The notes under the pieces are model-generated. The model was given only the letters and a program-made list of their open reading frames with translations. It made no database searches and had not been told where the DNA came from. A stretch of 64,000 nt of DNA from an uncultured Pelagibacteraceae bacterium (GTDB taxonomy: Bacteria; Pseudomonadota; Alphaproteobacteria; Pelagibacterales; Pelagibacteraceae). Of this stretch, positions 24,140 through 27,308 are shown in pieces. The DNA lies in the NCBI GenBank assembly GCA_902629285.1, contig CACOQN010000007.1:8180-72179 (forward strand), in the 5' to 3' direction. The position numbers and the translations under genes were made by a program. The stretch's first letter is position 1, and every line of letters starts with the position of its first letter.

Positions 24140-24967
24140 ATGAATAGAAGAAAATTCTTATCGTATGTAGGTTGTGGATGCGGCAGCTTATTACTCCCAT
24201 CTTGTGGAACTGCTCCAATAACTGAGAGAAAACAATTAAAAATTGTTTCTGAGGCGAAATTAAATGCACAAGCTGCAAAGATCTATGAAAAAATTAAAGA
24301 AAAAGAAAAAATGAGTGATGACAAAGAAAAACTTAGAGAAATTAAAGATATTGGAAAAAGAATGGAAAATTCTATTTCGGAGTATTTTTATCAGGCTGGT
24401 TTAAAGGACCCAACAATAAACTTTGATTGGGAATATATTTTAATTGATCGAAAAAAAGTTAGAAATGCTTGGTGTATGCCAGGAGGCAAAATCGCTGTAT
24501 ACACAGGTATCTTAGAAGCAACAAAAAATACAGATGGACTAGCTGCAGTAATGGGACATGAAATAGCTCATGCTGTTGCAAAACATTCGGTAGAAAGAGC
24601 TAGCAGAGCAACTCTTGTTAATACTGGAACTCAATTGATAGATATTTTTAGTGGAGGTAAATTATCTGAGGTTAACAGAACTACAGGAATTAATACAGTA
24701 GGATTAATAACACAATTAGGTATTCTTAATCCCTTTAATAGAAAACAAGAGAGTGAAGCTGATTATCTAGGTATGATTTTTTCTTCTTTGTCAGGATACG
24801 ATATAAGAGAAACTGTAAAGATTTGGGAAAGAATGAAAAAACTTAATAAAGGTAAAGAACAACCTGAGTTTCTAAGCACGCATCCTTCATCTGATAACAG
24901 GATAAGAGATTTAAATGAAAAAATGAACGAAGTAATTTTGAAATATCCACCAATCAAAATAAGTTGA
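24140..24967 (+). CDS. M48 family zinc metallopeptidase, exported lipoprotein
   Basis: HEIAH, ESEAD, STHP; N-terminal RRKF and LPSC. Confidence 0.93.
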   Translation: MNRRKFLSYVGCGCGSLLLPSCGTAPITERKQLKIVSEAKLNAQAAKIYEKIKEKEKMSDDKEKLREIKDIGKRMENSISEYFYQAGLKDPTINFDWEYILIDRKKVRNAWCMPGGKIAVYTGILEATKNTDGLAAVMGHEIAHAVAKHSVERASRATLVNTGTQLIDIFSGGKLSEVNRTTGINTVGLITQLGILNPFNRKQESEADYLGMIFSSLSGYDIRETVKIWERMKKLNKGKEQPEFLSTHPSSDNRIRDLNEKMNEVILKYPPIKIS

Positions 24968-24976
24968 TAAGATAAA

Positions 24977-25052
<76 letters not shown>

Positions 25053-25136: not shown

Positions 25137-26249
25137 CTACAACTTATCAATGTATTTATTGTGAAATTGGTCAAAAGTGCCTTCAATAATATTTTTTCTA
25201 ATTGAAGCCATTAATTCTTGATAAAAATTAATATTATGAAGTGTCAGCAGCATGGATGCTAAAATTTCATTTGTATTAAATAAGTGATTCAAATAGTTTT
25301 TTGAATATTTATTCAAATTTAAATTGTCACAATTTGGGTCTAAAGGTGAATTATCGTTTTTATATTTGTTATTTTTAATATTAATTCTACCTTCCCAAGT
25401 AAATGCCAATCCTGTTCTGCCTGATCTAGTTGGCAAGACACAATCAAACATATCAACACCTCTTTTTACAGCACCTAATATATCAGAAGGCGTTCCAACA
25501 CCCATAAGATAATGGGGTTTTTCATCAGGAAGAAATTCCTTTATATCATCTAAAACTGAAAACATTTCATTTTGTGTTTCTCCAACAGCCAATCCACCTA
25601 TCGCATATCCATCGAAACCTATATTAATTAATTGTTCTAAAGATTTGAGCCTAAGGTCTTTAAATAATCCTCCTTGAACGATTCCAAACAGTGCTTTATG
25701 CGGGTTATTACCAAACGCTTTTTTAGACCTCTCAGCCCAGTAAAGAGAAAGATTCATAGATTTATTTATTAACTCATAATCATTTGTATTTTTAGGACAT
25801 TCGTCCATTATCATTACAATATCAGAATTTAACCCTAATTGAATTCTTATACTTTCTTCTGGACTTAGATAAAATTTTTTTCCATCAACATGCGAATTAA
25901 ATATAGCGCCTTTCTCTTTATCTATTTTATTTAATTTTGATAAAGACATAACTTGGAATCCACCTGAGTCTGTTAAAATTGGTAAATCACAATTCATAAA
26001 TTTGTGTAAACCACCAGCCGAACTGATTCTCTCTACACCAGGTCTTATCATTAAATGATAAGTATTTGATAAAATAATTTCTGAACCTGTTTTCTTAATA
26101 TCATCAATGGTACAAGCTTTAACAGTTGCTTGTGTTCCAACAGGCATAAAAGCAGGTGTATTAATTTTTCCCCGATGAGTTTCAATTAAACCACATCTAG
26201 CAAATTTGTCTTTTTTAGATACTTTAAAGGCAAATTTTTTTAATGCCAT
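25137..26249 (-). CDS. tgt: tRNA-guanine transglycosylase
   Basis: FMPVGT, TDSGGFQV, DECP, GGLAVGE, DMFDCVLPTR. Confidence 0.97.
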   Translation of the reverse strand: MALKKFAFKVSKKDKFARCGLIETHRGKINTPAFMPVGTQATVKACTIDDIKKTGSEIILSNTYHLMIRPGVERISSAGGLHKFMNCDLPILTDSGGFQVMSLSKLNKIDKEKGAIFNSHVDGKKFYLSPEESIRIQLGLNSDIVMIMDECPKNTNDYELINKSMNLSLYWAERSKKAFGNNPHKALFGIVQGGLFKDLRLKSLEQLINIGFDGYAIGGLAVGETQNEMFSVLDDIKEFLPDEKPHYLMGVGTPSDILGAVKRGVDMFDCVLPTRSGRTGLAFTWEGRINIKNNKYKNDNSPLDPNCDNLNLNKYSKNYLNHLFNTNEILASMLLTLHNINFYQELMASIRKNIIEGTFDQFHNKYIDKL

Positions 26250-26257
26250 TTGAAAAG

Positions 26258-26818
26258 TTATTTTGATTTAAAGCTTATAATTTTATCTGGATCTGTTACT
26301 GCTCCATTATTATTCTCGTCACCTCTTTTGATCATATCAATAAACTCCATACCTTCTAACACTTTACCAAAAACAGTATACTGTCTATCTAAAAAAGGTG
26401 CTGGCTTGAAACATATAAAAAATTGGCTATTCGCACTATTAGGGTCAGATGATCTTGCCATAGACAAAGTGCCTCTATCGTGTGGTAAGCTACTAAATTC
26501 TTGATCCAAATCTGGAAGATCAGAGCCACCCATACCAGCTCTTCTTAAATCAAATTCCTTTGACACTGAATTACCAAATTTTACATCTCCGGTTTGGGCC
26601 ATAAAACCATCAATAACTCTATGGAAAACAACATTGTCGTATTTACCACTATTGGCAAGTTCTTTTATTCTTTTTACGTGGTTTGGTGCCACATCTTCAA
26701 ACAATTCAATTTTAACATCACCATCTTTTAGTTTTAATATCATTATATTCTCCTTAGCTATTGATTGATTAGTAATTAAAATAAACAAAATAAATAGTTT
26801 AATATAAAATTTATTCAT
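26258..26818 (-). CDS. Cyclophilin-type peptidyl-prolyl isomerase
   Basis: FHRVIDGFMAQTGD, SMARS, NSQFFI. Confidence 0.95.
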   Translation of the reverse strand: MNKFYIKLFILFILITNQSIAKENIMILKLKDGDVKIELFEDVAPNHVKRIKELANSGKYDNVVFHRVIDGFMAQTGDVKFGNSVSKEFDLRRAGMGGSDLPDLDQEFSSLPHDRGTLSMARSSDPNSANSQFFICFKPAPFLDRQYTVFGKVLEGMEFIDMIKRGDENNNGAVTDPDKIISFKSK

Positions 26819-27308
26819 ATTTATCTTTCAAAGATTTGATTGTACTTTTGGTAGTAAATTTTTTTATATCACCTTTTAATTTAACAATATCTTTCACAAA
26901 TCTTGATGAAATAATTTGATTTTCTACATCAGACATTAAAAATATCGTTTCAATATTTTGGTTTAATTTTCTATTCATACCAGCCAGTTGAAATTCATAT
27001 TCAAAATCTGATACAGCTCTTAAACCTCTTAAAATAATATTTGATTTATATTTTTTGCATAAATCAGTAGTTAAAGATCCAAAAGTAACTACTTTTATTT
27101 TTTTTTGGTTTAACTTCAGATCTTTAAATAAGGCTTTATTGACTATTTCTATCCTTTCGTCTGAACTGAATAGATAATTTTTGTTACTTTCATCTGAAAC
27201 ACCAACTACTATTTTATCAAATAATTTTAATGATTTTTTAATGACATCTATATGCCCAAAAGTTATAGGATCAAATGTACCTGGATAAATAGCTGTTTTA
27301 TTCATCAA
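26811..27308 (-). CDS. coaD: Phosphopantetheine adenylyltransferase
   Basis: [24 protein letters not shown]. Confidence 0.97.

What the first reader, a model, noticed from the sequence alone, without database searches (positions are those of the whole stretch)
25236..25331. TGT missing two of four structural zinc ligands
Seen: PLDPNCDNLNLNKYS...LHN. Established: bacterial TGT binds Zn through CxCxxC plus a His 31 residues after the first Cys. Here that Cys and His are kept at the right spacing, but the second and third Cys are Asn and Leu, while catalytic motifs are intact. Inference: a zinc-free TGT, a metal-sparing adaptation.
Basis: partly seen in the sequence, partly recalled or inferred. 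Interest (0 to 1): 0.6.

Follow-up and report, generated by a model that had tools for sequence, protein, structure and literature searches.

The report
Zinc-site-free tRNA-guanine transglycosylase of SAR11
The SAR11 (Pelagibacter) copy of Tgt, the enzyme that puts the queuosine precursor into tRNA, has lost the structural zinc site that the literature calls absolutely conserved, yet looks like a working enzyme; the same loss is found in all of Pelagibacterales, in all sampled Hyphomicrobiales and in other lineages, so it is a recurrent variant and not a special ocean adaptation.

Summary
The gene at 25137-26249 (minus strand) is an orthologous bacterial tgt. Aligned to Z. mobilis TGT, it keeps Cys307 (C318) and His338 (H349), but C320 is Asn309 and C323 is Leu312.

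The loss is not a quirk of this genome. None of 60 Pelagibacterales TGTs (two families) has more than two of the four ligands. Different lineages keep a different leftover Cys, and several keep none, including two members of the window's own genus. Catalytic and pocket residues are invariant and dN/dS is 0.03-0.13, so the enzyme is maintained. A zinc-independent fold is well supported, though only by inference.

The "metal-sparing adaptation" reading is not supported. All 35 sampled Hyphomicrobiales (soil, plant and animal associates) have at most two ligands, and 120 of 120 Bartonella clusters have one. Marine Rhodobacterales keep all four. Published work on B. henselae and S. meliloti shows that tgt works in Hyphomicrobiales, whose sampled TGTs lack the site.

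Known context: Pelagibacteraceae have tgt and the QPTR transporter but no queA or queG. PreQ1 salvage was already proposed for them in 2024.

Earlier notes of this scan reported zinc-free TGTs on other DNA. I found no paper describing natural ones. This is a new variant of a known kind, of moderate interest.

The parts
25137..26249 (-). tgt, tRNA guanosine(34) transglycosylase, 370 aa (P0001)
   Evidence: TIGR00430 equivalog at 472.6 bits against a cut-off of 306.75. PDB phmmer gives E 3.5e-129 to Z. mobilis TGT. The AF2 model has pLDDT 95.7 and superposes on 1ozm at RMSD 1.1 A, TM 0.96.
25236..25331 (-). Degenerate zinc-site segment, Cys307 to His338 (the finding's coordinates)
   Evidence: Translation and alignment to Zm C318...H349.
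25329..25331 (-). Cys307 codon, at ligand position 1 (Zm C318); kept here
   Evidence: Cys at this position in only 18 of 60 Pelagibacterales TGTs.
25323..25325 (-). Asn309 codon, at ligand position 2 (Zm C320); lost
   Evidence: Cys at this position in 16 of 49 sequences of the family, all from other genera.
25314..25316 (-). Leu312 codon, at ligand position 3 (Zm C323); lost
   Evidence: Cys in 0 of 49 sequences of family f1, and kept only in family f2.
25236..25238 (-). His338 codon, at ligand position 4 (Zm H349); kept here
   Evidence: His in 50 of 60 Pelagibacterales sequences, Asn in the rest.
25968..25970 (-). Asp94 codon (Zm D102, catalytic)
   Evidence: Invariant in 49 of 49 SAR11 sequences and in 100 of 100 rows of alignment A2.
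25443..25445 (-). Asp269 codon (Zm D280, nucleophile)
   Evidence: Invariant in 49 of 49 and in A2.
25578..25598 (-). GGLAVGE loop (residues 218-224), the preQ1-type pocket signature
   Evidence: G219, A221, V222 and E224 are invariant and L220 is 48 of 49 in SAR11. PMC11570991 reports the same signature for Pelagibacter.
26258..26818 (-). Cyclophilin-type peptidyl-prolyl isomerase, directly upstream of tgt (8-nt gap)
   Evidence: In Hyphomicrobiales a gap of about 1.2 kb separates ppi from tgt, and in Brucella and Rhizobium queA lies there.
26811..27308 (-). coaD, head of the coaD-ppi-tgt run
   Evidence: TIGR01510 at 180.3 bits.
24977..25052 (-). tRNA-Lys(UUU) just downstream of tgt (context only)
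   Evidence: ARAGORN.

Best explanation
This is the orthologous, working bacterial Tgt of SAR11, and it folds without the structural zinc ion. It exchanges G34 of tRNA-Asn, -Asp, -His and -Tyr for a 7-deazaguanine base. That base is most likely preQ1 imported by the QPTR/YhhQ transporter. It uses the usual Asp nucleophile and a preQ1-type pocket. The zinc ligands were lost after the constraint on them relaxed in or before the ancestor of Pelagibacterales. Descendant lineages now carry different relics (0 to 2 ligands), filled in with aliphatic or small polar residues. In this genus Cys307 and His338 remain. Because Pelagibacteraceae have no QueA, QueG or QueH, the product probably stays preQ1-tRNA.

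Shown: the ligand loss, its distribution, the purifying selection, the gene context and the missing pathway genes.

Inferred: metal-free folding, enzyme activity and the identity of the base.
For: - The ligand columns are C, N, L, H against Zm C318, C320, C323, H349.
- Among 60 Pelagibacterales TGTs the maximum is 2 of 4 ligands. The patterns are S-N-C-H (family f2), [VIL]-C-S-H (early f1 genera), C-x-L-H (crown Pelagibacter and g2/g5), and no ligand in genus g4 and in two early-branching members of the window's genus.
- No other conserved Cys or His is specific to SAR11. No other column tracks zinc-site status.
- D94, D149, C151, Q192, the GGLAVGE loop, Y247, M249 and D269 are invariant or nearly so in 49 sequences. 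dN/dS is 0.03-0.13 in 13 pairs.
- tgt was found in 44 of 46 good-quality family genomes and 54 of 54 good-quality order genomes.
- The AF2 model has pLDDT 95.7 (86-92 across residues 301-320) and RMSD 1.1 A to 1ozm.
- All four GUN tRNAs are present. QPTR is present, TIGR00697 at 100.8 bits.
- queA was found in 0 of 101 family genomes. queC, queG and queH were not found in the window's genome.
- Zinc-poor TGTs coexist with queA in family f2 (36 of 40, adjacent to tgt) and in the GTDB family around Brucella (149 of 151).
- All 120 Bartonella TGT clusters read S-x-C-P-A-A...N. B. henselae TGT complements E. coli with preQ1 (PMC11570991).
- An S. meliloti tgt mutant behaves like que mutants and is not rescued by preQ1 (PMC3568095).
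Against: - No metal analysis or enzyme assay exists for any SAR11 Tgt.
- AF2 does not model metals, so a confident fold does not prove metal-free stability.
- Cys307 and His338 are kept in the 13 crown-Pelagibacter sequences read. On the gene tree the Cys may even have been regained, which hints at some residual role.
- From my own knowledge (Chong et al. 1995, listed in the references of PMC3074131), single ligand mutations wreck zinc binding and activity in E. coli TGT. Loss therefore needs compensation, and I could not identify any.
- The B. henselae and S. meliloti sequences themselves were not read. Only genus-wide and family-wide samples were.
- preQ1 as the substrate rests on pocket residues and a published proposal. 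No preQ1 riboswitch was found.
Confidence: 0.75

Rival explanations
1. Adaptive metal sparing. Selection for a lower zinc quota in zinc-poor surface ocean removed the site. Together with loss of the Zn- and Fe-S-dependent de novo queuosine enzymes, this left a metal-free queuosine branch.
For: - The whole order of ocean oligotrophs lacks the site.
- The de novo enzymes and QueA/QueG are gone, and only QPTR plus a zinc-less Tgt remain.
- The Q pathway is reported to be metal-hungry and to fail under Zn restriction in A. baumannii (PMC11672702, PMC9894224).
- The window genome's ribosomal proteins L36, L31, S14 and L28 are the Cys-poor forms.
Against: - The same loss occurs in 35 of 35 sampled Hyphomicrobiales with large genomes from soil, plants and animals. 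Marine Rhodobacterales (27 of 27) and a marine Rhodospirillaceae MAG keep CCCH.
- The relics are scattered (a different Cys kept in different lineages), as expected for drift after relaxed constraint.
- One zinc atom per Tgt molecule is a trivial share of any cell's quota (inference).
- Cys-poor ribosomal proteins are usual in Alphaproteobacteria (my own knowledge), so they are not specific evidence.
Confidence: 0.12
2. A residual or remodelled metal site. In crown Pelagibacter, Cys307 and His338 (perhaps with Asp305, Asp308 or water) still bind Zn or another metal weakly, so the protein is zinc-poor and not zinc-free.
For: - Cys307 and His338 are kept at the canonical spacing in the 13 crown-genus sequences read, and in g2/g5.
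- Earlier branches have V, I or L at position 1, so the Cys may have been regained twice.
Against: - Two members of the same genus (L145, L146) and all of genus g4 have neither residue. Ten of 60 sequences have Asn in place of His. Yet these proteins are equally conserved elsewhere.
- Two protein ligands do not make a structural Zn site of useful affinity (general coordination chemistry, my own knowledge).
Confidence: 0.1
3. A decaying or repurposed gene. With queA and queG gone the pathway is broken, and tgt is either a relic on its way out or now acts on another substrate.
For: - queA, queG, queH and queC are missing.
- tgt is interrupted in a few genomes, for example split into two frames in closed genome G066.
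- tgt was not found in 2 of 46 good-quality family genomes.
Against: - dN/dS is 0.03-0.13 and every catalytic and pocket residue is invariant.
- The gene is retained across about 20 genera of extremely streamlined genomes, together with QPTR.
- The zinc site is equally degenerate in family f2 and in Hyphomicrobiales, which keep queA. Zinc-site loss is therefore not a symptom of pathway decay.
Confidence: 0.03

Closest known systems
Canonical bacterial Tgt (Z. mobilis and E. coli tRNA-guanine(34) transglycosylase, EC 2.4.2.29, TIGR00430; PDB 1pud, 1q2r, 1ozm)
   Same: About 55% identical over the full length. Same predicted TIM-barrel plus C-terminal subdomain (RMSD 1.1 A). Same catalytic Asp residues, the same preQ1-type pocket (DEC, GGLAVGE) and the same tRNA substrates encoded in the genome.
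   Different: Two of the four zinc ligands are replaced here (C320 to Asn, C323 to Leu), and up to all four in close relatives. No QueA or QueG lies downstream in the pathway.
Tgt of Hyphomicrobiales, including Bartonella henselae bTGT (Quaiyum et al. 2024, PMC11570991) and S. meliloti Tgt (PMC3568095)
   Same: Degenerate zinc site (0-2 ligands) with an intact GGLAVGE pocket. Same coaD/ppi-(queA)-tgt neighbourhood. Bartonella, like Pelagibacteraceae, has cut queA out and keeps only tgt plus QPTR. Published experiments show function in this order.
   Different: The replacements differ: mostly Ser-x-Cys-Pro-Ala-[Ala/Ser/Thr] with Asn, Ile, Ala or Val for the His. The gene tree places Hyphomicrobiales with the CCCH-bearing Rhodobacterales and Rhodospirillales (98% SH-aLRT), so the loss is probably independent. 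The AU test does not reject one clade (p 0.105). Neither paper mentions zinc ('zinc' occurs 0 times in the main text of PMC11570991).
Zinc-independent paralogues or variants of zinc proteins (DksA2, FolE2/GCYH-IB, QueD2, C-minus ribosomal proteins)
   Same: A structural or catalytic zinc requirement is dispensed with while function is kept. Several of these belong to the same queuosine and folate pathway (PMC11672702).
   Different: Those are extra, Zur-regulated paralogues that back up a zinc form. Here the only copy has lost the site constitutively, across whole orders, and no regulation is implied (one search finds one tgt in the genome).

Membership tests
Bacterial tRNA-guanine(34) transglycosylase Tgt (TIGR00430 / PF01702) | Sequence profile match above the curated cut-off | tested here: met
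   TIGR00430 equivalog at 472.6 bits against 306.75. PF01702 is precomputed for the protein.
Bacterial tRNA-guanine(34) transglycosylase Tgt (TIGR00430 / PF01702) | (beta/alpha)8 barrel with a C-terminal subdomain | tested here: met
   AF2 pLDDT 95.7. Foldseek to 1ozm gives TM 0.96 and RMSD 1.1 A over 368 columns. This is a prediction, not a solved structure.
Bacterial tRNA-guanine(34) transglycosylase Tgt (TIGR00430 / PF01702) | Catalytic aspartates (Zm D102, D280) and base-binding D156 | tested here: met
   D94, D269 and D149 are present and invariant in 49 of 49 SAR11 sequences.
Bacterial tRNA-guanine(34) transglycosylase Tgt (TIGR00430 / PF01702) | preQ1-type pocket (Cys158, Ala232-Val233 in GGLAVGE) | tested here: met
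   C151 and GGLAVGE 218-224. Also reported for Pelagibacter in PMC11570991.
Bacterial tRNA-guanine(34) transglycosylase Tgt (TIGR00430 / PF01702) | Structural zinc site CxCxxC...H, called 'absolutely conserved' in PMC3074131 | tested here: not met
   The columns read C, N, L, H, and there are 0-2 ligands in all 60 Pelagibacterales TGTs. This hallmark is evidently not universal in the family: 24 of 144 full-length cluster representatives have at most one ligand. Orthology is shown by profile, tree and synteny, so I keep it in the family as a zinc-site-free variant.
Bacterial tRNA-guanine(34) transglycosylase Tgt (TIGR00430 / PF01702) | Substrate tRNAs with G34-U35 (Asn, Asp, His, Tyr) in the genome | tested here: met
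   ARAGORN finds tRNA-Asn(GTT), -His(GTG), -Tyr(GTA) and -Asp(GTC).
Bacterial tRNA-guanine(34) transglycosylase Tgt (TIGR00430 / PF01702) | Guanine/preQ1 exchange activity on tRNA | not testable with these tools
   Support is indirect only: purifying selection and published activity of tgt in Hyphomicrobiales, whose sampled TGTs lack the zinc site.
Complete bacterial queuosine pathway (Tgt-QueA-QueG/QueH) | QueA and an epoxyqueuosine reductase present | tested here: not met
   queA was found in 0 of 101 Pelagibacteraceae genomes. queG and queH were not found in the window's genome. The sister family f2 does have queA, in 36 of 40 genomes.
Queuine-salvaging bTGT (Chlamydia type) | Widened pocket GG[LS][AS]G in place of GGLAVG | tested here: not met
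   GGLAVGE is kept. PMC11570991 makes the same point.

The most novel reading that the evidence does not exclude
The zinc site of Tgt was removed by selection and not by drift. In Pelagibacterales this would complete a queuosine-type tRNA modification branch (QPTR plus Tgt, ending at preQ1-tRNA) that needs no metal cofactor at all. It would be a zinc- and iron-economy trait of the most abundant ocean bacteria. The Cys307/His338 pair of crown Pelagibacter would be a secondarily regained feature with its own role, for example weak metal or redox sensing.
Probability: 0.12. Interest if true: 0.6.

Novelty: new variant of a known kind. Interest (0 to 1): 0.4.

Why it matters
Tgt is a textbook zinc enzyme and a drug target in Shigella. 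Its four zinc ligands are described as absolutely conserved across the three domains, and one published survey discarded sequences that lacked them (PMC3074131).

This work shows that whole orders carry a conserved, evidently functional Tgt with 0-2 ligands. These include the most abundant marine bacteria, and also the rhizobia, Brucella and Bartonella. That corrects the hallmark. It also offers natural test cases for how a Cys3His structural site can be replaced by ordinary packing.

It bears as well on how zinc limitation affects queuosine modification, which would not act through Tgt in these lineages. It does not reveal a new function. The salvage context of Pelagibacter tgt was already published.

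Tried and rejected
- Alternative metal site. I looked for SAR11-specific conserved Cys or His. Only residues conserved in all TGTs turned up (H65, H82, H120, C151, C270, H322).
- Shared compensatory change. I compared every column between 122 CCCH sequences and four zinc-less groups. Only the ligand columns differ systematically.
- Single origin with Hyphomicrobiales. The 'NCPAS' motif of early SAR11 genera resembles rhizobial 'NCPA[AST]', and the synteny is shared. However, the tree puts Hyphomicrobiales with CCCH-bearing orders, and 'CPA' is simply the ancestral CxCPAC context. The AU test is inconclusive (p 0.105).
- Genome-wide zinc sparing judged from ribosomal proteins. L36, L31, S14 and L28 are Cys-poor, but this is usual for the class, so it is uninformative.
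- preQ1 riboswitch as a pointer to the substrate. None was found near yhhQ or, for RF00522, anywhere in the genome.
- Literature. Two searches for natural zinc-free TGTs found none. The library lacks most subscription journals.
- The sub-threshold QueC and QueF hits in the window's genome (27.1 and 25.6 bits) were taken as other superfamily members and not followed up.

Full report
**What is there**

The finding's coordinates (25236-25331, minus strand) translate to CDNLNLNKYSKNYLNHLFNTNEILASMLLTLH. These are residues 307-338 of a 370-aa ORF at 25137-26249.

- The ORF passes NCBIfam's Tgt equivalog (TIGR00430) at 472.6 bits against a cut-off of 306.75.
- It aligns over its full length with Z. 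mobilis TGT (E 3.5e-129).
- In that alignment the four zinc ligands Zm C318, C320, C323 and H349 face Cys307, Asn309, Leu312 and His338.
- The catalytic and pocket residues are intact: Zm D102, D156, C158, the GGLAVGE loop and D280.
- The nearest database proteins are named Candidatus Pelagibacter.

**Is it real and maintained?**

I read tgt from 60 genomes of the order Pelagibacterales, covering two GTDB families.

- No sequence has more than two canonical ligands.
- Family f2 reads S-N-C...H, so Cys3 is kept.
- The early-branching genera of family f1 read [V/I/L]-C-S...H, so Cys2 is kept, in an 'NCPAS' context.
- Crown Pelagibacter and genera g2/g5 read C-x-[L]...H, so Cys1 is kept.
- Genus g9 keeps only the His.
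- Genus g4 and two early-branching members of the window's own genus (L145, L146) keep nothing, with Asn in place of the His.

Against this variability, D94, S95, D149, C151, Q192, G219, A221, V222, E224, Y247, M249 and D269 are invariant in 49 of 49 sequences. Pairwise dN/dS is 0.03-0.13.

There is no SAR11-specific conserved Cys or His that could build another site. No column other than the ligand columns separates zinc-less from CCCH proteins.

An AlphaFold2 model has pLDDT 95.7, with 86-92 over residues 301-320. It superposes on 1ozm at 1.1 A. AF2 does not see metals, so this is only consistent with a metal-free fold and does not prove one.

**Context**

The gene is the last of a coaD-ppi-tgt run on the minus strand and is followed by tRNA-Lys(UUU).

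- The window's genome (94% complete) has one tgt.
- It has a QPTR/YhhQ transporter, TIGR00697 at 100.8 bits.
- It has the four GUN tRNAs.
- I found no queA, queC, queG or queH in it.
- queA was found in 0 of 101 Pelagibacteraceae genomes, many of them closed.
- The sister family f2 has queA in 36 of 40 genomes, directly upstream of tgt.
- In Hyphomicrobiales a gap of about 1.2 kb separates ppi from tgt. In Brucella and Rhizobium queA lies directly upstream of tgt.

So queA was cleanly cut out in the ancestor of Pelagibacteraceae. Zinc-site decay is independent of that event.

Quaiyum et al. 2024 (PMC11570991) already reported that Pelagibacter, like Bartonella, has tgt and QPTR only. They also reported that it keeps a GGLAVG (preQ1-type) pocket, and they proposed preQ1 salvage. 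'Zinc' does not occur in that paper's main text.

**How general is the loss?**

Among the 150 best representatives of 50%-identity clusters, 144 are full length. Of these, 119 have all four ligands, one has three, 18 have one and six have none.

In a named sample of alphaproteobacterial genomes:

- All 35 Hyphomicrobiales have 0-2 ligands, typically S-x-C-P-A-[A/S/T] with Asn, Ile, Ala or Val for the His. The sample includes Rhizobium, Mesorhizobium, Brucella, Bradyrhizobium, Methylobacterium, Methylosinus, Xanthobacter and Devosiaceae.
- All 27 Rhodobacterales, many of them marine, keep CCCH.
- All 4 Rhodospirillales keep CCCH.

A queA-less 1.5-Mb genome of the Brucella family proved to be a Bartonella. 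All 120 Bartonella Tgt clusters read S-x-C-P-A-A...N.

Published experiments show that tgt in this order works. B. henselae bTGT complements an E. coli queDF tgt mutant with 10 nM preQ1. An S. meliloti tgt mutant has the que phenotype and is not rescued by preQ1. I did not read those two exact sequences. The inference rests on genus-wide and family-wide uniformity.

**One loss or several?**

With the ligand columns removed, a maximum-likelihood tree gives:

- Pelagibacterales as one clade (100);
- Hyphomicrobiales as one clade (98);
- Hyphomicrobiales inside a clade (98) with the CCCH-bearing Rhodobacterales and Rhodospirillales.

This implies independent losses. The AU test does not reject a SAR11 plus Hyphomicrobiales clade (p 0.105).

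Independently of the tree, Cys1, Cys2 and Cys3 each survive in some Pelagibacterales lineage. The ligands therefore decayed within the order. Whether Cys307 of this genome is a relic or a regain is unresolved, because earlier branches have V, I or L at that position.

**Interpretation**

The best-supported reading (0.75) is a functional, zinc-independent Tgt in a minimal QPTR-Tgt salvage route that probably ends at preQ1-tRNA.

- The trait follows phylogeny and not habitat.
- The relic pattern looks like drift after relaxed constraint.
- One zinc atom per Tgt molecule is a trivial saving.

It cannot be excluded (0.12). A residual Cys/His metal site in crown Pelagibacter (0.10) and gene decay or repurposing (0.03) are less likely.

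**Novelty**

PMC3074131 states that the four zinc ligands are absolutely conserved, and it removed sequences lacking them from its survey. PMC9894224 lists Tgt as a zinc metalloenzyme. Two literature searches found no description of natural zinc-free TGTs, but the library is incomplete.

Earlier notes of this scan had already reported zinc-site-free Tgt on other DNA: Tsukamurella and Gordonia, CPR bacteria, and an alphaproteobacterium. My independently agree that the loss is recurrent.

**Caveat on data**

The tallies include genome G068, and that includes G180. Both are flagged unpublished. No specific claim rests on them.

Noticed in passing
window 24977-25052 (-): A tRNA-Lys(UUU) gene lies 85 nt downstream of tgt on the same strand. 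Its sequence also produces the spurious 82-aa ORF at 24763-25011.
   Followed up: partly
window 25137-27308 (-); L054, L056, L068, L082, L135; G254, G267: coaD-ppi-tgt is contiguous here, with an 8-nt ppi/tgt gap. In Hyphomicrobiales a gap of about 1.2 kb separates ppi from tgt, and queA lies directly upstream of tgt in Brucella, Rhizobium and Pelagibacterales family f2. In Bartonella (L135) only about 500 bp remain between ppi and tgt. queA was thus excised twice from the same slot.
   Followed up: yes
G066:C1:548574-549682 (same genus, closed genome): tgt is split into two overlapping frames (residues 1-162 and 154-370). This is either a frameshifted pseudogene or a sequencing error. Two good-quality family genomes (G046, G075) gave no tgt match.
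   Followed up: no
tree; L145, L146 versus L004-L015: Cys at ligand position 1 occurs only in crown Pelagibacter and in genera g2/g5. Earlier branches of the same clades have V, I or L. Either the relic was kept twice against many losses, or Cys was regained twice at the old ligand position.
   Followed up: partly
G000:C5 (L133:1393-1947, +): The QPTR/YhhQ queuosine-precursor transporter gene starts at the stop of the upstream ORF. It has no preQ1 riboswitch, and no RF00522 match occurs anywhere in the genome.
   Followed up: yes
G000:C1, C5, C11 (the window's genome): Ribosomal proteins L36 and L31 have no Cys, and S14 (long form) and L28 have one Cys each. These are the zinc-independent forms, as is common in Alphaproteobacteria.
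   Followed up: partly
window 24140-24967 (+): An M48-family (HtpX/LoiP/BepA-like) zinc metalloprotease lipoprotein with an HExxH motif converges on the tgt end of the operon.
   Followed up: no
P0131, P0139, P0177, P0181, P0186, P0190, P0191, P0203, P0207, P0243: Several unnamed metagenomic Tgt clusters outside Alphaproteobacteria also lack the zinc ligands. They fall in at least three separate small clades on the tree.
   Followed up: partly
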